Part shown: positions 7,114 to 41,333 of the stretch, piece by piece
Layout: the number at the start of each line of letters is the position of its first letter
Numbering within the stretch: the stretch's first letter is position 1
DNA from: a virus
Lineage: Duplodnaviria; Caudoviricetes
Virus record (IMG/VR): IMGVR_UViG_3300044638_006592
Coordinates: 1-63,613 of that record
Strand: one strand, 5' to 3'
DNA: 63,613 nucleotides
Program-made: the position numbers and the translations under genes
The notes under the pieces: model-generated
What the model was told of the DNA's origin: nothing
What the model saw: the letters and a program-made list of their open reading frames with translations, nothing else
Database searches by the model: none

Positions 7114-7705
7114 CAAACACGATGAAATAAAAAAATTGTTAAAGGCATCTAGAAATATGTTGTCTAACACTCAATTAAATGAGGAAGAAAACAGAATTAA
7201 AGGTCGTTATGGAATTATAACAGAACAGGGTAGTAATTTGACCTCGGGTGACGTTACCGATAAAATAAATGTGACAAAATCTGTTGAAGATACCATTGAA
7301 GATGAAACGGAAACAAAAGAAGATAAAAAACAAGCATATAGAATATCTGGTGGTATTTTAGTTTTACATGGTAAAGATAATGTTGATTTGCAGTTAACAA
7401 CTGATGAAAAAATTGCATTTCAAGAAACTATGGATGAGTTTGTCCAGGGTGTTTCTAGTTTAGTGGATTTTAACAAATTGAACGTGTATAAGAACAATGT
7501 TGAATGGTCAGGAAAGATTATTGATTTTGACCTTGAATTCTTCTTTTCAATTGGAGAGGAAAATGGAATCTATATAAATGGTGAAATGATAAGAACTGAT
7601 GAGAAATTCTTAGAAGTAATAACTAAACTTAAAAGTTTTTATGAGAAATTCAAAACTAAATGGGCTAATGTTTTAGCTAATAGAAAAAAAACAGTAAAAG
7701 ACTAA
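7100..7705 (+). CDS. Hypothetical phage protein
   Basis: 201 aa ORF in operon. Confidence 0.6.
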   Translation: MKMNNKHDEIKKLLKASRNMLSNTQLNEEENRIKGRYGIITEQGSNLTSGDVTDKINVTKSVEDTIEDETETKEDKKQAYRISGGILVLHGKDNVDLQLTTDEKIAFQETMDEFVQGVSSLVDFNKLNVYKNNVEWSGKIIDFDLEFFFSIGEENGIYINGEMIRTDEKFLEVITKLKSFYEKFKTKWANVLANRKKTVKD

Positions 7706-29338: not shown

Positions 29339-30190
29339 ATGATTGAAAATTACGTTGGTAAAGTATTAAATGGTGATTGTATTGAGGTGATGTCAGAAAT
29401 ACCTGAGTCATCTGTACATTTGGTGGTTTGTAGTCCTCCATACAATGTTCAGATTCCTTATGACACCCACAAAGATGATTTACCTATGAGTGAATATTGG
29501 GATTGGACTGAGAAATGGTTAACACAGGTTTATCGACTACTAAAGGATGACGGTAGAGTTTCAATCAATATTCCTTATGAAGTAAATGTTCAAGAAAGGG
29601 GTGGTAGAGTATTTTTTGTGTCTGAATTTTATCAGGTAATGAAAAAAGTAGGTTTCAAGTTCTTTGGTATTATTGATTTGGAGGAAGATAGTCCACATAG
29701 AAGTAAGACTACAGCTTGGGGTTCTTGGATGAGTCCATCAAGTCCATATATATACAATCCAAAGGAATGTGTAATATTGGGTTATAAAAAACAACATGTA
29801 AAAATAGTTAAAGGTCAACCTCAATGGACTGGTGAGTTAGTTGAACAGGAAGATGGTAAGAAGAAAATGATATACAAGGAAGAAGATAAGAAAGACTTTA
29901 TGGAGTTAGTATTTGGACAATGGAAATACTTGAATGATAGTAGACCTTTAACTAAGGCAACTTTTAGTATGGACATTCCAACAAAAGCAATAAAGATATT
30001 AACATACAAAAACGATATTGTTCTTGACCCATTCGCAGGAAGTGGAACCAGTTTGGTTGCTGCTGAGATATTAGATAGACGATGGATTGGAATTGAGTTA
30101 TCACCAAACTATACGGAAGTTGCAAGAAAACGAGTCTCAACATTTAAATTAGAGAAACAACAATTAAATTTAGAATTTGAAAGAGGTTAA
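29339..30190 (+). CDS. DNA methyltransferase, N4/N6 beta class
   Basis: GDCIE, SPPYN, VLDPFAGSGT, WIGIELS. Confidence 0.9.
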   Translation: MIENYVGKVLNGDCIEVMSEIPESSVHLVVCSPPYNVQIPYDTHKDDLPMSEYWDWTEKWLTQVYRLLKDDGRVSINIPYEVNVQERGGRVFFVSEFYQVMKKVGFKFFGIIDLEEDSPHRSKTTAWGSWMSPSSPYIYNPKECVILGYKKQHVKIVKGQPQWTGELVEQEDGKKKMIYKEEDKKDFMELVFGQWKYLNDSRPLTKATFSMDIPTKAIKILTYKNDIVLDPFAGSGTSLVAAEILDRRWIGIELSPNYTEVARKRVSTFKLEKQQLNLEFERG

Positions 30191-30613: not shown

Positions 30614-31695
30614 AAAAAATACTTATGAAAACAAAATCACTTAATGAGAATGAATTGAAAGAAAAAATCTTTCAAATCTATAAAGAGGAAGAAATAAAAA
30701 TATTCGAACAAAAATGGAATAGTTTATCTTCTGATGATAAAAAATTTGTTTTGGAGTTCTTAAAAGTTCTTCATCCTGAAAAATCTAAATTATTGAACGA
30801 AGCAAAATGGTATAATACTGTTGGAGATATTGCAGGTATATTTGACCCTACAGGAACTGTTGATTTGATAAATGGTATTAGTTATTGGAAACAAGGTGAC
30901 CATTTATTTGCTTTATTATCTTGGATTTCAGTAATTCCTTATGTTGGTGATGTGGTAGCTAAACCAGTAATTGGTGTTTTTAAAGCGGGAGGAATTATTG
31001 GTAAAGAATTTAAGGCTGCTATGGTTGCTGGTGATGCCGCTAAAATAGCATCAACGGCAAAACAATCAGGACCACTTAAAATATTTGTTGAGAGAGCTCC
31101 AATTTGGGGTGGTGAATTAATAAAAATGTTATCCGGATTTATAAATAAATTTCCAATAGTTAGACGTATCATTCCACTCATCGAAAATTATGTTAAATTA
31201 TTTAAAAGTGCTTCAGTTGAAATGAAGACCGCGAGTAAAGCAGGTAAAGAAGCGGAAGCGGTATTTAAAGGGTTTAGAGAGTTTGGTGGAGTTAAGAATA
31301 ATTGGTTGAAATATATGAAATCAAACGCACCTCTTTGGGAAAAATTAAATGCTGGCAGTTTTAGATTATTCGGAGGTAATCCGGCAACAAGGTCATTAAT
31401 GAGAAGAAGTAAGTGGTATTTAGGATTTTTGGATGCTGTTGGATTAGCGAATACTGTAGGTCCTGAAGAAGTTGAATCTAAAGTTCCTGATTTCGAAGCA
31501 AAACTTGATGAATACAATAGAAGTCCTCAAGCTCAAAGAAATATGGAACAAGACGTTGCAAGTTCAAAAGTTGAAGCGGTTCCACCTCCACCTACATCAA
31601 CAAGTACATCATCACCAATTCCAACTGACCCATTTACATTATTGGGTTCATTGTTTGGTGGTTCATCATCAGGTCTTGGTAAAGTTTTATCGTAA
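30598..31695 (+). CDS. Phage protein with pre-toxin TG-like hydrophobic segment
   Basis: DIAGIFDPTGTVDLING...LLSWISVIPYVGD; start probably MKTKSL near 30625. Confidence 0.5.
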   Translation: MDWIIKKILMKTKSLNENELKEKIFQIYKEEEIKIFEQKWNSLSSDDKKFVLEFLKVLHPEKSKLLNEAKWYNTVGDIAGIFDPTGTVDLINGISYWKQGDHLFALLSWISVIPYVGDVVAKPVIGVFKAGGIIGKEFKAAMVAGDAAKIASTAKQSGPLKIFVERAPIWGGELIKMLSGFINKFPIVRRIIPLIENYVKLFKSASVEMKTASKAGKEAEAVFKGFREFGGVKNNWLKYMKSNAPLWEKLNAGSFRLFGGNPATRSLMRRSKWYLGFLDAVGLANTVGPEEVESKVPDFEAKLDEYNRSPQAQRNMEQDVASSKVEAVPPPPTSTSTSSPIPTDPFTLLGSLFGGSSSGLGKVLS

Positions 31696-31697
31696 AT

Positions 31698-32048
31698 ATG
31701 AAATATCTTATAACGGAATCAAAAGTAAGGGAAATTGCGTTAAAATGGATGAATGATAATTTTAGTCCAGACCAATTGGAAATTGTTAAAAGTCCAAAAT
31801 ATCCTGACTCAATTTTTTACAGAAAAAATGGTCAAGTTGTTATGGAACAGGATTTAAAAAAGAAAAATTTTTACTTTCATTATGATGAAATTTGGTTATT
31901 TTTTGAATCGTTTTTTGGTATGAAATACTCTGAAATAGAACAACTTATGGAGATATGGTTGGAAGAGACCCTTAATTTAGAGGAATATACACCTATCAGT
32001 GAGTACGTAATCAATGGCATTGGTGGTTGGAAGAGACCCTTAATTTAA
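31698..32048 (+). CDS. MKYLITES-family protein whose 3' end is repeat 1 plus spacer 1 of CRISPR-like array 2
   Basis: Paralog of 15597..16148; LEETLNLEEYTP is encoded by the 36 bp repeat. Confidence 0.8.
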   Translation: MKYLITESKVREIALKWMNDNFSPDQLEIVKSPKYPDSIFYRKNGQVVMEQDLKKKNFYFHYDEIWLFFESFFGMKYSEIEQLMEIWLEETLNLEEYTPISEYVINGIGGWKRPLI

Positions 32049-32323
32049 AGGGATATACACCTAGATTATGGTTTTAGGTTGCCATCAGCTAGTTGGAAGA
32101 GACCCTTAATTTAAAGGGATATACACCTTTTCATAATAAATTCTATTTTATTGTTACGTTGGAAGAGACCCTTAATTTATAGGAATATACACCTCAATAC
32201 CGCGATAAAAATGGACGGACAGGTTGGAAAACACTCTCAATTTAGAGGGATATACACCCAATGATTCAGGTATATCGCAGATGTTTTAGTTTAAAAATAC
32301 TCTCAAATTAAAACAGAATCACC
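31958..32323 (+). CRISPR. CRISPR-like mini-array 2: 5 x 36 bp repeats plus one degenerate terminal repeat; spacers 32/30/30/29/30 bp
   Basis: GTTGGAAGAGACCCTTAATTTAAAGGGATATACACC-type repeats at 31958, 32026, 32092, 32158, 32223; degenerate copy 32289-32323; internal CCCTT/AAGGG stem. Confidence 0.85.
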
Positions 32324-32659
32324 TTCTCGAATACCTAATTTTTTACAGGTATTACCTTTCAATTCAAGTATGGTATCACCAGTTCCAAAATAGTTTGGAC
32401 AATCTTCAGTTTCACAAGGAGGACAATTATGGTGGATTTTTGTAATAACATTATCTTCAATAAAAATAATGTCTAATGGTATAATGCAGTTTTTCATCCA
32501 AAATGCGTGTTCACCTGAGTTCATCAAAAATAACATACCATTAAATGTGTTATCAAAGTTTTTACCCATCATACCTTTTGAGGTATCTTTTTGAGAAAAT
32601 ACAACTTTGACTTTGAATTTGTGATTTCCTATATTTATTAACATAACTATAAATATCAA
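32303..32659 (-). CDS. DUF192 family protein
   Basis: GMLF...FWMKNCIIPLDIIFI...ILELKGN...LGIREGD. Confidence 0.85.
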   Translation of the reverse strand: MIFIVMLINIGNHKFKVKVVFSQKDTSKGMMGKNFDNTFNGMLFLMNSGEHAFWMKNCIIPLDIIFIEDNVITKIHHNCPPCETEDCPNYFGTGDTILELKGNTCKKLGIREGDSVLI

Positions 32660-32662
32660 ACT

Positions 32663-33061
32663 ATGGATAACTTTAATAGGTCAGCAGGAATAATTGTAAA
32701 ATGTGGTGATGAGGTTTTGCTTTGTAAAAGAAGTGAAGACCAAACTTATGGTGGTGTTTGGAGTATTCCTAGTGGTCATCTAAATAAAGGTGAAGATGCT
32801 ATTGATGCCATGAAAAGAGAGTTCGAAGAAGAAACAAATCTTAAAGTTAATAAGAATCTTAAATTAATTAGTTTTATTCCAATGGGTAAAAGTCTTATGT
32901 ATGTTTACCTTATGAAAGTTAAAGAAAAGATATATCCTGACTTAGAAAATGCTGTTGATGGAATCGAACACTCTGAATGTGGTTGGTTCACATTTGATAA
33001 CATTCCTGAGTCAGTAAATGAAAAACTTAAAAAAGTTATTGAAATTTCATACAAGGATTGA
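32663..33061 (+). CDS. NUDIX hydrolase
   Basis: Nudix box GHLNKGEDAIDAMKREFEEETNL. Confidence 0.9.
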   Translation: MDNFNRSAGIIVKCGDEVLLCKRSEDQTYGGVWSIPSGHLNKGEDAIDAMKREFEEETNLKVNKNLKLISFIPMGKSLMYVYLMKVKEKIYPDLENAVDGIEHSECGWFTFDNIPESVNEKLKKVIEISYKD

Positions 33062-33191
33062 GTTTTTTTCAACTTTGTGTATATTTATATTCACAAACCA
33101 ATCCCCCTTCTTTATTGGTTAAATTATAAAACCCAAGTAAAAGTAAAATTTTATTTGGGTTTTTTGTTTTTCAGGAAAAATATTTGTATAT

Positions 33192-33644
33192 TTGTTGAGT
33201 ATGGGAAATAATATTCAAATAAAGAACAGAAAAGTTTCATTTGAATATGAGATTATTGAGACTTATACTGCCGGAATCGTACTTCAAGGAACTGAGGTTA
33301 AAATGATTAGGGAAGGTAAAGTATCAATGGTTGACAGTTATTGTTATTTTAGTGATGGTGAACTATTTGTTAAAAATTTATTAATAAACGAATCTAAATC
33401 TTTTTTCACTCACAAACCTGACAGAATTAAGAAACTTTTGTTGAAGAAACAAGAATTAGTTAAGATTGAGAATAAACTTGTTAAGGGATTAACGTTATTA
33501 CCATTCAAGTTATTCACGAATGAGAAAGGTGTAATAAAAATTGAGGTTGTATTAGGTAGAGGTAAAAAATTGTATGATAAGAGAGAGAGTTTGAAACTGA
33601 AAGATATAAAGAGAATACAAAATTGTCAACTAAAAATAAAATAA
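33192..33644 (+). CDS. smpB: SsrA-binding protein SmpB
   Basis: NRKVSFEY...AGIVLQGTEVKMIREGK...KLLLKKQE...GRGKKLYDKRE. Confidence 0.95.
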   Translation: MLSMGNNIQIKNRKVSFEYEIIETYTAGIVLQGTEVKMIREGKVSMVDSYCYFSDGELFVKNLLINESKSFFTHKPDRIKKLLLKKQELVKIENKLVKGLTLLPFKLFTNEKGVIKIEVVLGRGKKLYDKRESLKLKDIKRIQNCQLKIK

Positions 33645-33732
33645 CGGTGGCGATTGGCGAAGTAAAAGCCCTGCACTACCGTTAAAGTTTAACACGATGC
33701 TCAATGGCTTTTATTTTGCCAATTGCGTGTTA
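33642..33732. repeat. attC-like hairpin site, long variant (91 bp)
   Basis: TAAC-GGTG-GCGATTGGCGAAGTAAAAGCC...GGCTTTTATTTTGCCAATTGC-GT-GTTA; the three mismatches are all G.T on the + strand. Confidence 0.75.
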
Positions 33733-33826
33733 TCGGTTCGGTGCGGTTTATTTTGTTAATAACTTTATTTGGTGGTTACGATATTAATACGTATCTTTGT
33801 CGTATAAATAATTAAAACAAACAATT

Positions 33827-34279
33827 ATGGAAACATTCAATTTCAATGATGGTGGCAGAGAAGCCGCAGGTTACAAAGGGAAAACAGGCGATTGCGTTGC
33901 TCGTTCAATTGCCATTACCACAGGATTGCCTTATCAGCAGGTTTATGAAGCCTTAGCAAATGGTAACGCTACACAACGCAAAGGCAAAAGAGAAGGGAGT
34001 AAGGCAGGTGTAAGAACTGCTGCAAGAGGCATTAACACTAAGCGTAAATGGTTTGGTGATTATATGGCTTCTCTTGGATTTGTTTGGACACCAACAATGC
34101 TTATAGGTCAAGGCTGTAAAGTTCATTTAAAGGCAGATGAATTACCGATGGGTAAACTTATTGTAAATGTATCCAAACACTTTACAGCAGTTATTGATGG
34201 TGTTATAAATGACACTTACGATTGCAGTAGAGAAGGAACAAGATGTGTTTACGGATACTATAAATACATTGGCAAATGA
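33827..34279 (+). CDS. Cassette 1 hypothetical protein
   Basis: FNDGGR...GDCVARSIAI...KHFTAVIDGVINDTYDCS; higher GC than flanks; own TATCTTTG promoter. Confidence 0.7.
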   Translation: METFNFNDGGREAAGYKGKTGDCVARSIAITTGLPYQQVYEALANGNATQRKGKREGSKAGVRTAARGINTKRKWFGDYMASLGFVWTPTMLIGQGCKVHLKADELPMGKLIVNVSKHFTAVIDGVINDTYDCSREGTRCVYGYYKYIGK

Positions 34280-34361
34280 GAGTTGAAATAAACCTTACAG
34301 AAGAAGTTGCAAAAGCTATTCAAAAGAAAGCAGAAGCACAAAACTTAATAATTAAAAACGA

Positions 34362-35156
34362 ATGTTAAATAGAATTACTGAACAGCCATTTTACCAAACC
34401 CGTGTTAGTGGCAGTACTTTTGTGAACGCTGACTGCTTTGATGTTTTTCCTTTTATTGAGGACAAATCAATTGATGCTATTATTTGCGATTTACCTTATG
34501 GAACTACTAACTGTAAATGGGATTCTGTTTTGGATTTGAATAAACTTTGGGAACAATATAAACGAATACTAAAAGATAATGGAGTGGTAATTTTATTTGC
34601 ACAAACACCATTTGATAAAGTGCTTGGTTGCTCAAATTTGGAATGGTTAAAATACGAATGGATTTGGGAGAAAACACAAGCAACAGGATATTTTAATGCA
34701 AAGAAAATGCCTATGAAAGCACACGAAAATATTTTAGTATTTTACAATAAAACTCCAAAGTTTAACCCACAAAAAACAGAAGGACACAAGCCTGTAAACA
34801 CCTATACCAAGAAAGCAGAAGTTTGTAATAAAACAGAAGTGTATGGGAAAGTAAAACAAGATGTAAGTGGTGGTGGAGAAACTGACAGATACCCAAGAAG
34901 TGTGCAAGTTTTTTCTTCAGATAAACAGAAAACAAAACTTGATGGAACTATACATCCTACACAGAAGCCACTTGCTTTACTTGAAATGCTTGTAAAATCA
35001 TATACAAACGAAAGCGATATGGTATTGGATAACACAATGGGTTCAGGAACAACAAACTTGGCTTGTATCAAATTAAATCGCAAATCAATTGGTATCGAAA
35101 AGGAAAAACAATATTACGATGTCGCTGTTCGGAGGGCTTCGGAGTATTGCCACTAA
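34362..35156 (+). CDS. Cassette 2 DNA methyltransferase, N6/N4 beta class
   Basis: ICDLPYGTT, KYEWIWEK, HPTQKP, VLDNTMGSGTT; stop codon is the TAA of the next TAAC. Confidence 0.9.
   Translation: MLNRITEQPFYQTRVSGSTFVNADCFDVFPFIEDKSIDAIICDLPYGTTNCKWDSVLDLNKLWEQYKRILKDNGVVILFAQTPFDKVLGCSNLEWLKYEWIWEKTQATGYFNAKKMPMKAHENILVFYNKTPKFNPQKTEGHKPVNTYTKKAEVCNKTEVYGKVKQDVSGGGETDRYPRSVQVFSSDKQKTKLDGTIHPTQKPLALLEMLVKSYTNESDMVLDNTMGSGTTNLACIKLNRKSIGIEKEKQYYDVAVRRASEYCH
34380..34407. repeat. Right half of an attC-like site (left arm apparently deleted)
   Basis: GCCATTTTACCAAACCC-GT-GTTA followed by GTGGCAGTAC, complementary to the cassette end at 35144-35157. Confidence 0.6.
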
Positions 35157-35201
35157 CGTCCGATGATAAACAATCGTTTTAATGTTGTTTATCATTTGTT
35201 A
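35154..35201. repeat. attC-like hairpin site (48 bp)
   Basis: TAACGTCCGATGATAAACAATCGTTTTAATGTTGTTTATCATTTGTTA. Confidence 0.85.
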
Positions 35202-35312
35202 TGTGTAGGTGTGGTTAATTAAGGTAGAATGTTTAATCGGAGAACCGAACAAAAAATTTAAAAGAAAAAAGTGGGAATTTTAAATCTTAATATTTATATA
35301 TAAAAGAAAACA

Positions 35313-36164
35313 ATGAAAGATTTGAAAAAGTTTATTAAAACAACAATACGAGAATTTTTGAATGAGAATGACAATACTTTTAAGCTTAACTTAAATGATA
35401 AAAATTTATCTAAAGTTATTGAAAGAATTAGTAAAATTTATAATTGTTCTATTGAAGATATAAATAATGGTGAATGTGATAATTTTGCCGTAGAAGTTGC
35501 TGAATATTTTTTTGGGGAAGATACAACACAAACATTATTTTTTAGAGAATTAAATGGGTTCAAATTAGTTACCTATGGTGATTATTCTAAATTTGATGAT
35601 GAATTAGACCCTCATACTTGGATTTTTTATAATGGAAAACACTATGACTCAGAAACACCGAATGGTGTTGAATCATATTATGATTTACCAATTTATAAAA
35701 GACAATTTAAAGATAAAACATTAAATGAAACATACTCAGAAGATAAAGATGAAATTATAGAATTTCTCAATGATTTACCAGAAGAAATAACACTATATCG
35801 TGGTTTAATAGTACCAAAAGAAAAGAAAACTATAAATAAAAAATCATTAGGTGTTCATTGGTCATTGGATGAATATTTTGTTAAAAATATGTTTGAATAT
35901 GATACCTTTAGGATTTATGATAGAGAAGATTATAATTTATGGTTTATAGAAGCTGTTTTTAATAAATCAGATATTGATTTTGAAGGGACAATAGATAAAA
36001 GAATTATAAAAGATAGTGGTTTCTTTTGGGATGAACTAACTGGTGAGATGATACAAAATGATTCAGATGGAATAAAACAACACCCATATTCACATGAAAA
36101 TGAAATTTTGGTGAAACCAAACTCAACCCCAAAAATAATTAAAATAGAGAAAATAAAATTATAA
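35313..36164 (+). CDS. Cassette 3 two-domain hypothetical protein with phage-type leader
   Basis: MKDLKKFIKTTIREFLNE; ATATTTAT upstream; second domain ITLYRG...LGVHWS...ENEI resembles an ADP-ribosyltransferase-like R-S-E pattern. Confidence 0.65.
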   Translation: MKDLKKFIKTTIREFLNENDNTFKLNLNDKNLSKVIERISKIYNCSIEDINNGECDNFAVEVAEYFFGEDTTQTLFFRELNGFKLVTYGDYSKFDDELDPHTWIFYNGKHYDSETPNGVESYYDLPIYKRQFKDKTLNETYSEDKDEIIEFLNDLPEEITLYRGLIVPKEKKTINKKSLGVHWSLDEYFVKNMFEYDTFRIYDREDYNLWFIEAVFNKSDIDFEGTIDKRIIKDSGFFWDELTGEMIQNDSDGIKQHPYSHENEILVKPNSTPKIIKIEKIKL

Positions 36165-36234
36165 AAGTGGGTGGGTTTTCTTTTAAAATTTCAACCGAAA
36201 TGTTGATTAGAACGATGAACGGAACACTTACACA

Positions 36235-36282
36235 TAACGTCTGATGATAAACAATCGTTTTAATGTTGTTTATCATTTGTTA
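36235..36282. repeat. attC-like hairpin site (48 bp)
   Basis: Same 48-mer, TAACGTCTGATG...TTTGTTA. Confidence 0.85.
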
Positions 36283-36311
36283 TATTTAGTTTTTATTATT
36301 AAATTTAAATT

Positions 36312-36569
36312 ATGGAAAAATTAAATACATTTTTAATAGATAAGATATTTGAAAAAATTAATTCAGATGGACATAAAATATTAGAGGTTAAAGAAATTAT
36401 AGAATCAACAAAACAAAATAAAACATGTAAAGTTCATTTATTTAACGAAATATACCTTGAAACTAAAAAAGATGATTATCAGGAATTGATAAAAAGACAT
36501 TTTTCATTTTTGTTAGAAAACGAAGAATACGAACTTTGTAGTGAATTAAAAAAATTAAAATTAATATAA
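36312..36569 (+). CDS. Cassette 4 hypothetical protein
   Basis: C-terminal ENEEYELCSELK (UVR-like helix). Confidence 0.55.
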   Translation: MEKLNTFLIDKIFEKINSDGHKILEVKEIIESTKQNKTCKVHLFNEIYLETKKDDYQELIKRHFSFLLENEEYELCSELKKLKLI

Positions 36570-36573
36570 GATT

Positions 36574-36759
36574 ATGAAAAGATTACACGTAAAATTTATC
36601 AAATGGTTGTCCAATAAATTTGGTTATAAAATTGTGATGTTAAAAGGTAAAAATGGTACAACCACCATCGAAGGGAACAGAGAAGTTTTACCTTATGTGG
36701 ATATAACAGGATATTTCTTCAAAAAAGAACCACTTAGACGTAATGTTGGAAAAAATTGA
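36574..36759 (+). CDS. Cassette 4 hypothetical protein
   Basis: 61 aa ORF ending just before the next site. Confidence 0.5.
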   Translation: MKRLHVKFIKWLSNKFGYKIVMLKGKNGTTTIEGNREVLPYVDITGYFFKKEPLRRNVGKN

Positions 36760-36762
36760 ATA

Positions 36763-36810
36763 TAACGTCTGATGATAAACAATCGTTTTAATGTTGTTTA
36801 TCATTTGTTA
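36763..36810. repeat. attC-like hairpin site (48 bp)
   Basis: Same 48-mer. Confidence 0.85.
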
Positions 36811-36854
36811 GGTTTTGTCATTAATTTGTTTTACCTTTGTAAAAAATAATTATT

Positions 36855-37028
36855 ATGGAAAGAACATTTAATAGAAAAGAAGTTGAGGAAATGTGTAAAC
36901 AATCCTATATGAGAGGAATGAGTATTCAACACGACACAATGACAAAAAAGAAAATGAAACCACCAAAGGTTTTTGTTGAATGGGTAAAACAACTTATTGA
37001 TGAATGTCCAGTTGGTAAGTTTAAATAA
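36855..37028 (+). CDS. Cassette 5 57 aa protein (not in ORF track)
   Basis: MERTFNRKEVEEMCKQSY...CPVGKFK fills the cassette; TTTG...TACCTTTG promoter upstream. Confidence 0.6.
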   Translation: MERTFNRKEVEEMCKQSYMRGMSIQHDTMTKKKMKPPKVFVEWVKQLIDECPVGKFK

Positions 37029-37038
37029 AAATTGAATA

Positions 37039-37086
37039 TAACGTCCGATGATAAACAATCGTTTTAATGTTGTTTATCATTTGTTA
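37039..37086. repeat. attC-like hairpin site (48 bp)
   Basis: Same 48-mer. Confidence 0.85.
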
Positions 37087-37399
37087 GCACCAGTACGGTT
37101 AAATATTTTAAAAATTATTTGATGGTTTCATTTATTTTACTTACCTTCGCATCATAATAATTTTAAAACATAAAAAATATGAAAATGTTATCAGAATCAG
37201 TTAAAAGTACAAAATTTGTTGGTTTAGACAAATTAATGGAACATGGTTATTTACTTAATCAAGGTGTAAATAATAAGTTTTAAATTTAACCCAGAATGTG
37301 ATGCTAATATTGAAAAATATTTATCGCAAGATAAAATAAATGAAATAATTGGTGAAAACATTAAAAAAGATTTTATTAACTTTATAAAAAATAACTAAA

Positions 37400-37606
37400 A
37401 TGGAAGAAATAACTAACAAAAGATTAGTGTTTAACGCTGATGAAATAAAAGAAATAATAAAAGAACACTTAAAATCAAAAGGTGTTGATGTACAAATAAT
37501 AGAATTTTTTGGTACAACTTTAAATTATGTAAATAGAGATGATTACATGGGTGAACCAAAATTTAATCTAAAAACAGTTGTTTGTCAAAGCTATAATAAA
37601 GAATAA
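37400..37606 (+). CDS. Cassette 6 hypothetical protein
   Basis: 68 aa ORF. Confidence 0.55.
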   Translation: MEEITNKRLVFNADEIKEIIKEHLKSKGVDVQIIEFFGTTLNYVNRDDYMGEPKFNLKTVVCQSYNKE

Positions 37607-37834
37607 ATGGAAGAAATTTACACAAACATCATTCATCATAAACCAGTCCCAATCACTGAGTTTAAACCAACATCACCAATGATGAACCCAATTACTTATG
37701 AATTAATTAACCCAGAAGCTTGGGAAGATGGGTTGTATTTATCACCAAATTTAATGGATGAAAACTTTTCAATAAATATGGTATTTGAGGTAAAGGATAA
37801 AAAAGTGGTTAGGGTATATAAATCGAAGGCATGA
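37607..37834 (+). CDS. Cassette 6 hypothetical protein
   Basis: 75 aa ORF abutting the previous stop. Confidence 0.55.
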   Translation: MEEIYTNIIHHKPVPITEFKPTSPMMNPITYELINPEAWEDGLYLSPNLMDENFSINMVFEVKDKKVVRVYKSKA

Positions 37835-37848
37835 TGTAGTATTGGTGC

Positions 37849-37896
37849 TAACGTATGATGATAAACAATCGTTTTAATGTTGTTTATCATTTGTTA
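37849..37896. repeat. attC-like hairpin site (48 bp)
   Basis: TAACGTATGATG...TTTGTTA. Confidence 0.85.
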
Positions 37897-37953
37897 TACA
37901 CAGTATTTTGTGTGGTGGGTTGATATTAACAAAATAAATTAGTATTTTAGTAA

Positions 37954-38358
37954 ATGAAAATAGAAATACCTTTATATAATATTAAAGTTAAGTTTTACTT
38001 TGATTATGATTTAAGTAAACCAATTAATAAGATAAAGAAAAAACATAAAAAGAAAAAACTTTATAAAATAGGTGAAATTGATTTTAATGGAATTGTTATC
38101 GGAGAGTTTATACCAAAGAAAAAGTTGGTTTATGTGTTAGTAAATAGAACCGATAAAGGTATTTGTGTCGATACTTTAACTCACGAAATATATCATTTGA
38201 CTTCTAAAATTATGAAATATAATGGTTTTAAGTTTAAGAAAAGTGATGAACCTTTTGCGATATTAAATGGGAAATTAAATTCAATGATTATTGGTAAATT
38301 AATAAAAAAGGGTAAGAAATTAGATTACCCAACAACTAAACAAATAAAAATAAAATGA
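37954..38358 (+). CDS. Cassette 7 HExxH protein
   Basis: TLTHEIYH...DEPFA. Confidence 0.6.
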   Translation: MKIEIPLYNIKVKFYFDYDLSKPINKIKKKHKKKKLYKIGEIDFNGIVIGEFIPKKKLVYVLVNRTDKGICVDTLTHEIYHLTSKIMKYNGFKFKKSDEPFAILNGKLNSMIIGKLIKKGKKLDYPTTKQIKIK

Positions 38359-38627
38359 TAAAAATGATAAAACAAGAATGTTCATCATTACTATTAAACA
38401 TGAGTGATGAACAAATAAATGAGTTAATAAAAATAAGTAAGGAAGATTTAATTGAATCTAAAGGTACTTTTGATGAAGACACACTTTACCAATTATCATT
38501 GTCTAATGTAAAATTACATTGGGCTAGATTTATTAGACAATACTCAAATAACCCACTTAATAAAATAATTGATGTTGATAAGATTATCAACGAGGAAACG
38601 TTAAACGTTAAAACTTTATTAAAATAA
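38355..38627 (+). CDS. Cassette 7 hypothetical protein
   Basis: 90 aa ORF. Confidence 0.5.
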   Translation: MIKMIKQECSSLLLNMSDEQINELIKISKEDLIESKGTFDEDTLYQLSLSNVKLHWARFIRQYSNNPLNKIIDVDKIINEETLNVKTLLK

Positions 38628-38628
38628 T

Positions 38629-38778
38629 ATGAGTGATTTAATTTATTTATTCAATTGTTGGTGGAAAACAGTAATTAGAGGAAACCCCAATAAACGGTCA
38701 TTTTTGATTTTTTCAAAAATGTTACGATTAGAAATAGAATGTTTGTTATATACTGGTAGATTTACATCTGAAATTTAG
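38629..38778 (+). CDS. Cassette 7 49 aa protein (not in ORF track)
   Basis: MSDLIYLFNCWWK...FTSEI, starting 2 nt after the previous stop. Confidence 0.4.
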   Translation: MSDLIYLFNCWWKTVIRGNPNKRSFLIFSKMLRLEIECLLYTGRFTSEI

Positions 38779-38791
38779 TGCGATGGATGAA

Positions 38792-38838
38792 AAAATATTG
38801 TGTATAACTATTTTATATAAACAGGTACCTTTAAACAA
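38792..38838. other. attI-like primary recombination site
   Basis: Cassette 7 end AAAATATTGTGTATAAC is not followed by the hairpin and lies ~30 bp upstream of the recombinase. Confidence 0.65.
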
Positions 38839-39651
38839 TTGATAATGAACGAAAAAGGTTTACCAACTTTAAAGATTTGTGAACAAAAGTTTAATTACTT
38901 AAATTACTCACCTCGAACCAAAGAGAACTATCTGAGTCATATAAGTAGGTTTATTACATCACAGACTAAATCCGCAACACACTTAAATTCCAAAGATTTT
39001 CAATCTTATTTGGATAACTATCAATTCACTTCTGTTTCTCAGCAAAACCAAGTGATTAATTCAATTAGATTTTTATACAAATTTGGATTGAATAAAAAAT
39101 ATGATAAAGTAAGTTTCAAAAGACCAAAATCAGAAAAGAAACTACCCAGAGTTATTGATGGTGAATTTATAAAAGAAAGATTATCTAAAATTGAAAATCT
39201 TAAACACAAAGCAATTTTAACCTTAACATATTCGGTTGGGCTAAGAGTATCAGAAATTGTTAATCTAAAGATTGAAGATATAGATTCCAAAAGAATGTTG
39301 ATTAATATCAAAAACGCAAAAGGTAGAAAAGATAGACTAGTCCCATTATCAAAAAATGTACTTAATCTACTAAGAGAGTATTTTAAAGAATATAGACCAA
39401 CAGAATATCTATTTAATGGTCAAACGATAAATCAATATTCTGTAAGAAGTTGTCAAGAAATTTATAAAAAATACATTGAATTGTCTGGACATATACATAC
39501 ATTAAGACATAGTTGTGCTACTAATCTATTAGAAAACGGAACTGACCTAAAAATAATACAGAAAATCTTAGGGCATTCAAGTGTTAAAACTACAGAAATA
39601 TATACTCATGTTTCCAATCAAATATTGTCAAGAGTAAATTTACCCATATAA
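38839..39651 (+). CDS. Tyrosine recombinase/integrase with N-terminal SAM-like domain
   Basis: YSPRTKENY; catalytic GLRVSE, KGRKDR, HTLRHS, LGHS, TEIYTH. Confidence 0.95.
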   Translation: MIMNEKGLPTLKICEQKFNYLNYSPRTKENYLSHISRFITSQTKSATHLNSKDFQSYLDNYQFTSVSQQNQVINSIRFLYKFGLNKKYDKVSFKRPKSEKKLPRVIDGEFIKERLSKIENLKHKAILTLTYSVGLRVSEIVNLKIEDIDSKRMLINIKNAKGRKDRLVPLSKNVLNLLREYFKEYRPTEYLFNGQTINQYSVRSCQEIYKKYIELSGHIHTLRHSCATNLLENGTDLKIIQKILGHSSVKTTEIYTHVSNQILSRVNLPI

Positions 39652-39684
39652 AATTTGGTAGTTTAAAAATTTATTTGTATCTTT

Positions 39685-39972
39685 GTGGTCATGAATATTA
39701 CACTGACACATAACATCAAAATCCAACACGAAAAGTTTGGAGTCCTTCTGAATGAAACATTTGTTGATTCAACACAATTTAAGTTGTTTCTAAAAATGGT
39801 TCAGGGTTGTTTGGAACTGAAAAACGATTTGACATTTTTCAATGGATATGATTTTTTAATTCATGTTCCCTTCAAACATTTAACAGAATCTATTATTTCT
39901 ACATCACCTGTTGAAAATTATCAACTTGCTGACCACATGAAAAGTAAAATAGAATCTTTAATCACTAAATAA
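39685..39972 (+). CDS. Hypothetical protein
   Basis: ORF after a TATCTTTG promoter. Confidence 0.55.
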   Translation: MVMNITLTHNIKIQHEKFGVLLNETFVDSTQFKLFLKMVQGCLELKNDLTFFNGYDFLIHVPFKHLTESIISTSPVENYQLADHMKSKIESLITK

Positions 39973-39978
39973 AAAAAT

Positions 39979-40182
39979 ATGGGATTCTCAATTATTTTAA
40001 TTGCAATTATTTTGTATGTTTTATTCAAAAACATTATTAATTTCGTTAGATTTATTTTTTTTATATTCATTGCGTTTATCCTAATGATTGGTATTATTTT
40101 AGGTAGAGGATGTTCCAATATGGGTAATACAAATGAAAAAAATAACACAGTACAAGTTGACACTTTATCAAAAAATGTTTAA
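39979..40182 (+). CDS. Small membrane protein
   Basis: Two hydrophobic segments. Confidence 0.5.
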   Translation: MGFSIILIAIILYVLFKNIINFVRFIFFIFIAFILMIGIILGRGCSNMGNTNEKNNTVQVDTLSKNV

Positions 40183-40191
40183 ACTTGAAAT

Positions 40192-40389
40192 ATGAATAAC
40201 ATTATTAAAATCGTATTTTTTTGGATTATTTTACTAGTAACATTCGGACTATTTGCCGAGTATTGTATTAATCGAGAAGTTCCATTATTAATCACAGGGT
40301 CAGTCTTATTCATTTATGGGTGGGTATTTATGATTCTTTTAAAATATTCTGTAAACAATTTAATAAACAATAAAAAAAACAAACAATGA
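40192..40389 (+). CDS. Small membrane protein
   Basis: Two TM segments, upstream of the SPFH gene. Confidence 0.5.
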   Translation: MNNIIKIVFFWIILLVTFGLFAEYCINREVPLLITGSVLFIYGWVFMILLKYSVNNLINNKKNKQ

Positions 40390-41333
40390 TTGGACTTTCA
40401 ATTTTTATTTTAGGGCTGGTTTCTGCAGCTATTGTTTCAATTTCTACAAAATCGGACATGATTAAAGTAACACAAACTCGTTCAGGTACTGAAGAGGATT
40501 TTAACCCAAAATGGCTGATTACACCGATTAGTATATTATTATTATCAATTTTAGTATCAATTATTCAACCTTATAAACTTGAACGTGTTGACGCTGGACA
40601 TATTGGTATCAAGGTTAATTTGGTTGGTAATGAACGTGGTGTTTCTGATTATACATACAAAACAGGTTGGGTTGTATATAATACTTGGACAGAAAATCTG
40701 TTCGAATTCCCAACATATCAACAACATATTGATTATGGGGCTCAATCGGTTATTACAAAAGGTGGGTTTAACGCAACAATTAAACCATCATTTAACTACT
40801 CATTAGTTCCAAATGCTGTTGGTGATATGTTTGTAAATTTACGACTATCAATTAAGGAAGTTGAACAAGGATGGTTAATGACAGCAATTGTTGGTTCAGT
40901 GAATGACGTGGCAAATAAATGGAATGTTGATTCGATTTTCAATAATAGAGAACAATTTGAAGCGGCAATAATTCAAGAATGTAATAAACGTGTGTCTAAA
41001 TGGTTTGTTATTTCTCAATTAAGGACAAACATAACACCTCCTGAAGAATTACAAAAATCAATAATAGATAAGACACAAGCAATACAAGAAGTACAGGTTG
41101 CGGAAAACCAAAAGAAAGTTGCTGAAGCTGAAGCGGATAGAAAAATAGCAGTTGCTAAAGGTGATAGTGCTCAATTAGTTATCGGGGCAAAGGCTGAAGC
41201 GGAAGCGTTTAAAATAAAGCAACAACAATTGACACCTCTATATGTTGAATATTTGAAAATTCAAAAGTGGGATGGAAGTCTACCATCAACAGTTCTTGGG
41301 AACTCGAATGGTGTGATGGTTAATATGAAATAA
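40386..41333 (+). CDS. SPFH/band 7 domain membrane protein
   Basis: ERVDAGHIGIKVNL, AEAEA coiled coil, KWDGSLP. Confidence 0.9.
   Translation: MIGLSIFILGLVSAAIVSISTKSDMIKVTQTRSGTEEDFNPKWLITPISILLLSILVSIIQPYKLERVDAGHIGIKVNLVGNERGVSDYTYKTGWVVYNTWTENLFEFPTYQQHIDYGAQSVITKGGFNATIKPSFNYSLVPNAVGDMFVNLRLSIKEVEQGWLMTAIVGSVNDVANKWNVDSIFNNREQFEAAIIQECNKRVSKWFVISQLRTNITPPEELQKSIIDKTQAIQEVQVAENQKKVAEAEADRKIAVAKGDSAQLVIGAKAEAEAFKIKQQQLTPLYVEYLKIQKWDGSLPSTVLGNSNGVMVNMK

What the first reader, a model, noticed from the sequence alone, without database searches (positions are those of the whole stretch)
34404..38808. Each cassette's two ends are complementary, with G.T wobbles only on the + strand
Seen: start versus end pairs GTTAGTGGCAGTAC / GTATTGCCACTAAC (cassette 2), GTTATGTGTAGGTGT / ACACTTACACATAAC (3), GTTATATTTAGTTTTT / AAAAATTGAATATAAC (4), GTTAGCACCAGTAC / GTATTGGTGCTAAC (6), GTTATACACAGTATTTT / AAAATATTGTGTATAAC (7). 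The pairing is cassette-specific, 14-17 bp long, and every mismatch is G.T on the + strand, as in the hairpin arms. Inference: in an excised circle these ends extend the hairpin stem, so cassettes move as circles and the folded + strand is the substrate. The outer stem is about twice the 7 bp core of classical attC sites, and the spacer asymmetry (4 versus 1-2 nt) differs.
Basis: partly seen in the sequence, partly recalled or inferred. Interest (0 to 1): 0.85.

Follow-up and report, generated by a model that had tools for sequence, protein, structure and literature searches.

The report
Integron-like gene cassette array in jumbo phage
A fragment of a very large lake-water phage carries a row of small mobile gene cassettes, separated by hairpin sites and ending at a Xer-type recombinase gene, that is built like a bacterial integron but lacks the enzyme domain that defines integrons.

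Summary
Five of the six cassettes between 34404 and 38808 have ends that pair over 14-17 bp. The pairing is cassette-specific, with a G.T at position 11 in all five. The array is longer than reported: seven cassettes from the smpB stop codon (33642) to a conserved attI-like junction (38808), followed by a 268-aa Xer-like tyrosine recombinase. The same site type occurs in at least 118 IMG/VR stretches, two published huge phages and some Bacteroidota genomes. There, 83 of 192 site-bounded cassettes show cognate end pairing against 1.2% of non-cognate pairs. The inner hairpin covaries at 10 of 12 pairs. Cassettes recur behind different neighbours, and 18 of 19 other recombinase genes are preceded by a cassette end plus the same junction motif. 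Relative to recombinase and junction, the layout matches a classical integron with the window's + strand as the folding strand. It differs in four ways: no IntI-specific insertion, a site 5' of each gene (some carrying the start codon), genes facing the recombinase, and a 14-20 bp outer stem. Circles and strand choice are inferred. The wobble asymmetry rests on two fixed positions, and + is also the mRNA strand. I found no published description.

The parts
33192..33644 (+). Phage-encoded smpB. Its TAA stop codon is the TAA of the first site's TAAC, so it forms the distal flank of the array.
   Evidence: NCBIfam TIGR00086 at 149.9 bits, cutoff 119.1; sequence
33642..33732 (+). Distal recombination site, long type (91 nt): TAAC, 4-nt spacer, 21-bp stem with G.T pairs, GTTA.
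   Evidence: DNA fold -18 kcal/mol, z-score only -1.6
33729..34331 (+). Cassette 1 (ORF 33827-34279, 150 aa, phrog_3754, function unknown). Its TAAC end is missing.
34332..34403 (+). Right part of a long-type site that belongs to cassette 2 and holds the ATG (34362) of the methyltransferase ORF. The left arm and its TAAC are lost. Locus L072 holds the intact version.
34404..35157 (+). Cassette 2: N6/N4 DNA methyltransferase. Ends pair over 17 bp.
35154..35201 (+). 48-nt site: TAAC, G.T, 3-nt bulge, 12-bp stem, 11-nt loop, GTTA.
35198..36238 (+). Cassette 3 (ORF 35313-36164, 283 aa, no family match). Ends pair over 15 bp.
36235..36282 (+). 48-nt site
36279..36766 (+). Cassette 4 (two small ORFs). 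Ends pair over 16 bp, with T.G at position 9 and G.T at position 11.
36763..36810 (+). 48-nt site
36807..37042 (+). Cassette 5, a chimera. Its start matches one cassette family (other loci give a different cognate end for that start). Its body and end belong to a cassette with a cassette-4-type start.
   Evidence: joint 36306 to 36842 in 4 of 4 runs
37039..37086 (+). 48-nt site
37083..37852 (+). Cassette 6 (small ORFs). Ends pair over 14 bp.
37849..37896 (+). 48-nt site
37893..38808 (+). Cassette 7 (ORFs of 134, 90 and 49 aa). Ends pair over 17 bp.
38805..38844 (+). attI-like junction: the cassette's TAAC followed directly by a conserved TA-rich motif. TAAC plus 8 nt plus ATAAACA mirrors the left half of the 48-nt site.
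   Evidence: 18 of 19 other loci; a contig joins a cassette-5-type end directly to this sequence
38845..39651 (+). Tyrosine recombinase, 268 aa, Xer-like, with R134, H218, R221, H244 and Y253 in conserved motifs. It lacks the IntI-specific insertion.

Best explanation
The region 33642-39651 is an integron-like gene-capture platform carried by a jumbo phage of Bacteroidota. A Xer-type tyrosine recombinase (38845-39651) sits next to a simple attI-like site (38805-38844). Seven small cassettes lie on the other side of that site. Each mobile unit is a hairpin site followed by its gene(s) and ends in TAA, so the crossover lies at or within the TAAC on the + strand. Shown here: the architecture, the covariation of both stems, the shuffling of cassettes and the conserved junction. 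Inferred: an excised unit is a circle in which the cassette's end, the site and the cassette's start fold on the + strand into one helix of about 30 bp. That helix has two arms of about 12 bp, a 3-nt bulge and three conserved G.T pairs. This mimics a two-arm recombinase core site, like attC or the CTX-phage hairpin. One strand is exchanged with the attI-like site and replication resolves the product. Seen from the recombinase gene the layout is that of a classical integron, and the window's + strand corresponds to the integron 'bottom' strand. The differences are these: the recombinase lacks the IntI insertion, the site lies 5' of its gene, long site versions carry a start codon (and probably a promoter), genes point towards the recombinase, and the outer arm is 14-20 bp and cassette-specific. 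In this window the boundary between cassettes 1 and 2 is deleted and cassette 5 is a chimera.
For: The repeats and the cognate end pairing are. The pattern generalises. At least 118 IMG/VR stretches hold the exact 34-nt core. Of 192 unique cassettes bounded by two independently detected sites, 83 have at least 11 of 12 pairs at positions 5-16, against 452 of 36452 non-cognate pairs. A strand-symmetric filter (at least 14 of 16 Watson-Crick pairs) gives 168 unique cassettes against 21 in shuffled DNA, and 148 of the 168 have G.T at position 11. The inner stem covaries: across 28 variants, 10 of 12 pairs change on both sides and 98.9% of cells pair, with 0 of 500 shuffles as high. Site length classes of 48, about 79, about 88 and about 125 nt keep the same frame. 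Recombinase homologues (46-80% identity) lie in loci that carry arrays. In 18 of the 19 loci examined, a cassette end ...TAAC abuts the same TA-rich motif about 25-70 nt before the gene's start, and the adjacent cassette differs from locus to locus. The site travels with the downstream cassette: among pairs of contexts with identical sites, 272 share only the start and 63 share only the end. Long sites hold an ATG that reads into the cassette. Lake-metagenome contigs break at the site boundaries, and one contig joins a cassette-5-type end directly to the junction. Folded circle junctions give -19.6, -14.3, -19.7 and -19.4 kcal/mol on + against -16.4, -11.1, -16.8 and -16.6 on -, while junctions as they stand in the array give about -9. 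The recombinase has catalytic motifs and is closest to XerA and to VchIntIA among solved structures.
Against: No circle junction, empty site or strand-specific event was observed; the only public data were assembled contigs. The energy advantage of + is only about 3 kcal/mol. Outside positions 9, 11 and 16 there is no wobble bias (8 versus 7). The + strand is also the sense strand of 79 of 83 cassettes, so selection on RNA could produce the same G.U pattern. The recombinase lacks the domain that integron integrases are reported to need, and the papers read say no Xer-family enzyme is known with such adaptations. Inside the array the long outer stem cannot form locally, so excision would need long-range pairing or weak sites. 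A few chimeric inner hairpins (L102, L053) show that homologous exchange inside sites also happens. 109 of the 192 site-bounded cassettes fall below 11 of 12 in the ungapped score; some belong to a class with one bulged base, and some are composite units or false sites.
Confidence: 0.7

Rival explanations
1. The structures act in RNA. The central hairpins and the long-range stems that bracket each gene would be terminators, processing sites or stability elements of + sense transcripts. The G.U pairs would then reflect RNA folding, and cassette shuffling would be a by-product of repeated sequence.
For: All conserved non-Watson-Crick pairs are G.T on the strand that is also the sense strand (79 of 83 cassettes). 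The sites lie between genes.
Against: This does not explain the conserved junction in which a cassette end abuts the recombinase gene with no hairpin. It also does not explain the precise unit boundaries at TAAC. No Rfam family matches, and the terminator scan flags none of the sites. In several cassettes the putative promoter lies downstream of the start arm, so that arm would be absent from the cassette's own mRNA (inference, family D3).
Confidence: 0.08
2. The recombinase acts on double-stranded or cruciform sites with no strand preference. Alternatively, cassettes are shuffled mainly by homologous recombination between the repeated sites, as proposed for repeated regulatory stem-loops in T4-type phages (recalled, not read here).
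For: The five sites in the window are identical over 40 nt. Chimeric inner hairpins exist (L102, L053). The recombinase looks like an ordinary Xer enzyme.
Against: Homologous exchange does not need, and would not maintain, cassette-specific complementarity of the two ends or covariation of inner stems across unrelated site sequences. A 12-bp arm, 11-nt gap and 12-bp arm is not a normal double-stranded core site. Three conserved G.T positions make the two strands unequal.
Confidence: 0.12
3. Each cassette is an invertible segment (inverton or shufflon type) flanked by its own inverted repeats, and the recombinase flips it.
For: Each unit is flanked by cassette-specific inverted repeats of 14-20 bp, and there is a tyrosine recombinase with weak matches to invertase models (48.7 bits, cutoff 221).
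Against: Flipped forms would show A opposite C at position 11. This is seen in 1 of 168 cassettes and 0 of 192. 79 of 83 cassettes keep the gene on the site-sense strand. No strand-changing joints appeared in 4 runs.
Confidence: 0.03
4. The units are small transposons or MITE-like elements with terminal inverted repeats, moved by a transposase encoded elsewhere, for example by hairpin-dependent single-strand transposition of the IS200/IS605 kind.
For: The units have terminal inverted repeats, sub-terminal hairpins, a 4-nt boundary motif and a wide scattering over many genomes.
Against: The repeats differ between units except at positions 1-4 and 10-11, which argues against recognition by a protein alone. 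The units sit head to tail in one orientation next to a tyrosine recombinase with a fixed junction. No transposase gene was found among the neighbours searched.
Confidence: 0.03

Closest known systems
Classical integrons (IntI, attI, attC cassette arrays; for example class 1 integrons and the Vibrio chromosomal integron)
   Same: The recombinase gene is next to a simple insertion site. The array consists of co-oriented small cassettes. The sites are imperfect palindromes that keep structure rather than sequence, with an AAC...GTT core at the outer stem. The boundary lies in the AAC of the strand that folds better. Unpaired bases on one arm make the strands unequal. The site length classes are variable. 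The recombinase is about as close to IntI models as to Xer models (160.7 versus 160.8 bits).
   Different: There is no IntI-specific insertion: query residues 181-195 stand opposite residues 180-244 of VchIntIA. The site lies at the 5' end of its gene, and long versions carry the start codon. Genes face the recombinase instead of reading away from a common promoter. The outer arm is 14-20 bp and cassette-specific, with a conserved G.T at position 11. The host is a jumbo phage. Cassettes are very small (median 295 nt).
CTX-phage integration by host XerCD on a folded single-stranded hairpin (passages of PMC4792948)
   Same: A Xer-type enzyme without an I2-like domain would act on a folded strand whose stem mimics double-stranded DNA.
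   Different: Here the element encodes its own recombinase, there is an array of many cassettes rather than one phage genome, and the hairpin has a bulge and fixed G.T pairs.
Integron parts reported in phages (Qi et al. 2023, PMC9892861; abstract and section 3.4 read)
   Same: These are phage-borne cassette arrays, and DNA methyltransferases are among the cassette genes.
   Different: Those were found with tools built for classical IntI and attC, and their sites worked with IntI1. 21 phages were reported. The system here has a different recombinase and site layout. Whether those tools would detect it was not tested.
Xer-dependent dif modules of Acinetobacter plasmids (recalled; search listing only)
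   Same: Genes are bounded by Xer-type sites and thought to move as modules.
   Different: Those sites are 28-bp double-stranded dif-like sites in alternating orientation. They have no hairpin sites, no cassette-specific end pairing, and no dedicated recombinase with an insertion site.

Membership tests
Integron (sensu stricto) | Integrase of the IntI clade, with the additional domain reported as necessary for activity (Messier and Roy 2001, seen only as a reference in PMC4889954) | tested here: not met
   TIGR02249 scores 160.7 bits (cutoff 265) in two stretches, and PRK15417 scores 99.9 bits (cutoff 435). The alignment to VchIntIA (2a3v) skips about 50 residues of the chain.
Integron (sensu stricto) | attI insertion site next to the integrase gene, where the newest cassette abuts | tested here: met
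   The junction TAAC plus a TA-rich motif is conserved in the window and in 18 of 19 other loci, with different cassettes abutting it. A contig variant lacks cassettes 6 and 7. Its function as an insertion site is inferred.
Integron (sensu stricto) | Cassettes separated by attC-type imperfect palindromes that conserve structure, with AAC/GTT at the crossover boxes | tested here: met
Integron (sensu stricto) | attC detected by the covariance models of IntegronFinder or HattCI | not tested
   These programs are not available here. Rfam has no match.
Integron (sensu stricto) | Recombination of the folded bottom strand with replicative resolution | not testable with these tools
   Only consistent evidence exists: + folds about 3 kcal/mol better, and + corresponds to the bottom strand as seen from the recombinase.
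Integron (sensu stricto) | Mostly promoterless cassettes with attC 3' of the gene, read from a platform promoter away from intI | tested here: not met
   The site associates with the downstream cassette (272 versus 63). An ATG lies inside long sites. Genes point towards the recombinase.
Xer/dif chromosome-dimer resolution or dif modules | 28-bp double-stranded site of two 11-bp arms around a 6-8 bp centre | tested here: not met
   In double-stranded form the arms are 11 nt apart. Only the folded strand gives two arms of about 12 bp around a short unpaired spacer.
Xer-like tyrosine recombinase (protein family) | N-terminal SAM-like domain plus a catalytic domain with R..HxxR..H..Y | tested here: met
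   PF13495 and PF00589 both pass their cutoffs. XerA 4a8e is the best solved relative. All NCBIfam Xer equivalog scores are below cutoff.
Invertons / shufflons | Both orientations of the segment occur | tested here: not met
   1 of 168 and 0 of 192 carry the flipped signature at position 11.
IS200/IS605-type single-strand transposons | HUH (Y1) transposase gene with the element | tested here: not met
   None was found among the proteins scanned around the array. The adjacent enzyme is a tyrosine recombinase.

The most novel reading that the evidence does not exclude
A second lineage of integron-type gene capture, native to jumbo phages of Bacteroidota and run by a Xer-type recombinase without the I2-like insertion. 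It would be either an independent invention or a relic of the viral, Xer-like ancestor that has been speculated for integrons (discussion of PMC4792948). Its sites double as expression modules, holding a start codon and probably a promoter, so a captured cassette is expressed wherever it lands. A long cassette-specific stem with a fixed G.T and a 3-nt bulge would take over the strand-choice role that extrahelical bases and the I2 helix play in integrons.
Probability: 0.4. Interest if true: 0.92.

Novelty: new variant of a known kind. Interest (0 to 1): 0.85.

Why it matters
Integrons are so far tied to one enzyme clade whose extra domain is held to be needed for hairpin recombination. The origin of attC sites and of integrons is an open question, and a viral, Xer-like origin has been suggested in print. 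An abundant phage system with integron geometry but a plain Xer-type enzyme would make that idea testable. It would show whether hairpin-cassette capture can work without the IntI insertion. It would also reveal a mechanism by which huge phages exchange very small accessory genes; one cassette here encodes a DNA methyltransferase, a likely anti-restriction function. Finally, public annotation calls these enzymes XerD, so the arrays are invisible to current annotation.

Tried and rejected
Rfam scan of 31000-41000 with an E-value threshold: only one chance-level hit outside the array.

Sigma-70 promoter and terminator scan: none of the sites was flagged. The tool does not model Bacteroidota promoters.

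A loose pairing filter (12-13 of 16) gave about as many hits in shuffled DNA as in real DNA. I dropped it in favour of stricter, strand-symmetric filters and of cassettes bounded by independently detected sites.

I first counted six cassettes but only five sites and looked for models that would give N-1 sites. This was resolved when the flank of cassette 2 turned out to be the right part of a long site and a further site was found after smpB.

Public reads: all 24 runs offered were assembled contigs. The 4 runs laid cannot show circles, molecule ends or strands. Other joints in that table (35207 to 36228, 35269 to 36181, 35897 to 37440, 36297 to 37023, 37909 to 38791, and a 'goes back' joint) have short sides or unknown letters in between. 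They probably come from other cassettes that share end sequences, and I draw nothing from them. Contig depth differs between cassettes, but the tool warns against ranking by it.

GenBank phages: the best cultured-phage recombinases are only 39% identical (Cellulophaga and Polaribacter phages). No recombinase homologue lay within 12 kb of the arrays in LR756500.1 or LR745206.1.

Bacterial genomes: the Thalassobellus region had no further sites. The Fluviicola recombinase-like frame is partial and faces the array, so I do not claim that it serves that array.

Literature: five full-text searches found no description of this system. Subscription journals and supplementary files were not searchable, so a description may exist there.

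No structure prediction, complex prediction, atlas search or representative search was run.

Full report
WHAT THE WINDOW IS. The window is a 63.6-kb fragment of an IMG/VR virus record that CheckV rates 22% complete, which implies a very large phage. It has about 28% G+C and nearly all long ORFs lie on the + strand. It encodes an SbcC-like protein, SmpB, a Nudix hydrolase and two N6/N4 DNA methyltransferases. Two 37-nt stretches carry a TTTG ... TAnnTTTG pattern, which I recall as the Bacteroidota promoter consensus (family D6). The nearest cultured-phage recombinases come from Cellulophaga and Polaribacter phages. The host is therefore probably a member of the Bacteroidota. All 24 public runs that hold the region are lake-water metagenomes.

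THE OBSERVATION. Five identical 40-nt repeats stand at 35162, 36243, 36771, 37047 and 37857, where none is expected by chance. I took the units between them as running from GTTA to TAAC. On that basis the start and end of the same unit pair over 17, 15, 16, 14 and 17 bp for cassettes 2, 3, 4, 6 and 7. Non-cognate pairs reach 11 bp at most, with one exception. On the - strand the stems break at 8-10 bp. Every paired cassette has G in the start opposite T in the end at position 11. Cassette 4 also has T.G at position 9. Cassette 5 does not pair with itself, but its end pairs over 19 bp with the start of cassette 4. Single GTTA/TAAC pairs with a run of 14 arise by chance about once per shuffled window. 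Six such pairs that tile a 4.4-kb array exactly between the repeats do not.

THE ARRAY IS LONGER AND HAS TWO DEFINED ENDS. A tyrosine recombinase gene starts 36 nt downstream of cassette 7 (38845-39651). A 91-nt site of the same design follows the smpB stop codon directly (33642-33732): TAAC, a 4-nt spacer, a 21-bp stem with G.T pairs, then GTTA. The stop codon itself supplies the TAA. The 72 nt before cassette 2 are 90% identical to the right part of a long site that is intact in locus L072. There it has a TAAC and a left arm that forms a stem of about 20 bp. The window lacks that left arm and also the end of cassette 1. So there are seven cassettes and seven sites. One boundary is lost by deletion, which has fused cassettes 1 and 2.

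THE SAME SYSTEM ELSEWHERE. Allowing up to 6 mismatches, these loci hold 142 copies. Arrays also occur in LR756500.1 (7 sites) and LR745206.1 (4 convincing sites), two unannotated 'uncultured phage' records of 462 and 635 kb. Across all loci the sites fall into length classes of 48, about 78-80, about 86-90 and about 124-129 nt. All share the frame TAAC-G, a short unpaired stretch, a left arm, a variable middle, a right arm, T, GTTA. An alignment of 28 distinct 48-nt sites gives 10 of 12 inner-stem pairs changed on both sides, 98.9% of cells paired and an invariant 11-nt loop. It also shows two conserved G.T pairs, in 28 of 28 and 23 of 28 sequences. None of 500 shuffles reached the observed covariation, and structures slid by 1-3 columns paired in only 40-61% of cells. 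One caveat applies: the sites were collected with a finder that required a stem, so the percentage paired is partly by construction. The changes on both sides are not.

END PAIRING IS GENERAL. I took cassettes bounded by two sites that were detected without reference to their outer flanks. Of 192 unique cassettes, 83 have at least 11 of 12 pairs at positions 5-16, against 452 of 36452 non-cognate combinations. 39 reach 12 of 12 on the site-sense strand and none does on the opposite strand. The end base at position 11 is T in 192 of 192, and the start base is G in 141. Many of the remainder belong to a class in which the start carries one extra base before the G, which my ungapped score misses. 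Others are composite units or false sites. With a strand-symmetric filter (at least 14 of 16 Watson-Crick pairs) there are 168 unique cassettes against 21 in shuffled DNA. G.T at position 11 occurs in 148 and T.G at position 9 in 16. Once positions 9, 11 and 16 are set aside, G.T/T.G number 8 and A.C/C.A number 7. The asymmetry is therefore real, but it sits at fixed places. It is a conserved feature of the site, not a general sign that wobbles are tolerated.

MOBILITY AND THE POSITION OF THE CROSSOVER. The same cassette start is found behind many different upstream cassette ends, and the reverse also holds. Recombinase homologues of 46-80% identity lie in loci that carry arrays. I examined the 19 loci that include the gene's 5' part. 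In 18 of them the gene is preceded by a cassette end ...TAAC followed at once by the same TA-rich motif, and the cassette differs from locus to locus. The exception is L036, whose enzyme is 46% identical. This is the signature of an insertion point. No hairpin follows the last cassette, so the boundary must lie at or within TAAC. The site to the left of each cassette must therefore belong to that cassette. Three observations agree. First, among pairs of contexts with identical sites, 272 share only the downstream start and 63 share only the upstream end. The common 48-nt site also has 36 different downstream starts against 64 different upstream ends. Second, long sites contain an ATG whose frame reads through GTTA into the cassette, as the methyltransferase ORF does here. 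Third, in one lake run a contig joins a cassette-5-type end directly to the junction sequence. The shared letters place this joint at 37042/38809, which gives an array without cassettes 6 and 7. In all four runs a contig joins the first 28 nt of cassette 4 to the body of cassette 5. That is the non-chimeric parent of cassette 5 and it explains the exception.

FOLDING. A script built circle junctions from each cassette's end, its own site and its start. With DNA parameters the + strand folds into one helix: the outer stem, a G.T next to TAAC/GTTA, a 3-nt bulge on the 5' arm, and the 12-bp inner stem opening with another G.T. Energies are -19.6, -14.3, -19.7 and -19.4 kcal/mol for cassettes 3, 4, 6 and 7. 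The - strand gives -16.4, -11.1, -16.8 and -16.6, and shuffles give about -4. The junctions as they stand in the array give only about -9 on either strand. The folded form thus offers two arms of about 12 bp around a short unpaired spacer. That is the usual layout of a tyrosine-recombinase core site, and the TAAC lies at the arm-spacer border, where such enzymes cut (established knowledge of the family). After its TAAC the attI-like region repeats the spacing and the ATAAACA of the left inner arm.

THE ENZYME. The protein has the SAM-like N-terminal domain and the catalytic domain, and conserved motifs place R134, H218, R221, H244 and Y253. NCBIfam gives XerA 186 bits, XerD 160.8, integron integrase 160.7 and XerC 157.9, all below their cutoffs. 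Among solved structures XerA (4a8e) aligns in one piece. VchIntIA (2a3v) aligns in two pieces, with 14 query residues standing opposite 64 residues of the chain. That stretch is the region of the IntI-specific insertion (recalled). The insertion is cited as necessary for integrase activity in PMC4889954 (reference list) and is discussed as the I2 domain in PMC4792948 (passages). The family is large: 6699 proteins have E at most 1e-20 among 7422 candidates. The best 120 are 77-95% identical and 266-300 aa long, and where a source names them it calls them XerD.

COMPARISON WITH INTEGRONS. Seen from the recombinase gene, the order is recombinase (reading away), insertion site, then cassettes, each with its palindromic site on the far side. 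The better-folding strand is the one that would be called the bottom strand. That is the classical layout. There are four differences: the enzyme, the orientation of the genes together with the role of the site as the 5' end of its gene, the long cassette-specific outer arm with its fixed G.T, and the phage host. Cassettes are tiny (median 295 nt, range 92-1295). In the window only the methyltransferase has a predicted function, and two ORFs match PHROGs of unknown function.

A PROBLEM AND A POSSIBLE ANSWER (inference only). Inside an array the outer stem cannot form between neighbouring sequences, so excision would use poorly folded sites. If a single strand folds so that the start and end of a cassette pair at long range, the TAAC of that cassette lies in a full-length arm that continues into the next hairpin. 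That would recreate the cleavage substrate on the strand that is cut. This is untested.

RIVALS. RNA structure cannot be excluded as a contributor, because the sense strand and the site strand coincide in 79 of 83 cassettes. It does not, however, explain the junction or the unit boundaries. Homologous exchange between repeats does occur (chimeric hairpins) but cannot maintain the complementarity of the ends. Inversion is excluded by the near absence of flipped signatures. Transposon models do not fit the head-to-tail, one-orientation arrays next to a recombinase.

BEYOND PHAGES. The 48-nt pattern with the constant loop occurs in 50 stretches of species-representative genomes. Most are small contigs of Bacteroidota metagenome bins, and some bins carry other phylum labels. 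It also occurs in large chromosomal contigs. In one complete Fluviicola genome 13 sites lie on one strand over 30 kb (0-1 in shuffles), with a partial recombinase-like frame 2.3 kb beyond the last one. Genes next to solitary chromosomal sites are accessory-looking: LRR, WG-repeat, M23 peptidase and TonB_C. End pairing looked weaker there by eye and was not measured.

LITERATURE. Five searches found nothing that describes this system. Qi et al. 2023 report classical integron parts in 21 phages (abstract and section 3.4 read).

VERDICT. The integron-like reading is well supported by comparative evidence. The claims that cassettes circularise and that the + strand is the substrate remain good inferences. 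I rate it a new variant of a known kind, of high interest.

Noticed in passing
window 31956-32260: Five direct repeats of 40 nt, 83-100% identical to the reference copy, spaced 65-68 nt apart between ORFs. This looks like a set of iterons (a possible replication origin or a regulator-binding array).
   Followed up: no
window 33767-33803 and 39653-39689: Two 37-nt stretches, 76% alike, with a TTTG ... TAnnTTTG layout. One lies before the ORF of cassette 1 and one just after the recombinase gene. They resemble Bacteroidota-type promoters (consensus recalled).
   Followed up: partly
window 33192-33644: The phage encodes a full-length SmpB (149.9 bits, above cutoff). No tmRNA or tRNA gene was found in the window.
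   Followed up: partly
L102 (site near 7384 on its minus strand), L053 (near 12024), L013 (near 2876): Sites whose two inner arms come from different site types and do not pair, or a site fused directly to the start of another. These are signs of exchange or deletion inside sites.
   Followed up: no
L176+L177 (a complete Fluviicola genome, about 2,523,900-2,557,400): A chromosomal array of 13 sites of the same design on one strand over 30 kb. A partial recombinase-like frame (53% identity over residues 92-270) lies 2.3 kb beyond it on the other strand.
   Followed up: partly
L124 (LR756500.1) and L125 (LR745206.1): Published but unannotated huge-phage genomes of 462 and 635 kb carry arrays of the same sites. 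No recombinase homologue lies within 12 kb.
   Followed up: partly
Long sites in many loci, for example the roughly 125-136-nt class: The variable middle of long sites holds an AT-rich promoter-like stretch and an ATG. The first 10-25 codons of the cassette protein are therefore encoded by the recombination site itself, and related sites go with related N-termini.
   Followed up: partly
window 29339-30190 and 34362-35156: There are two N6/N4 DNA methyltransferase genes 4 kb apart. Only the second is a cassette.
   Followed up: no
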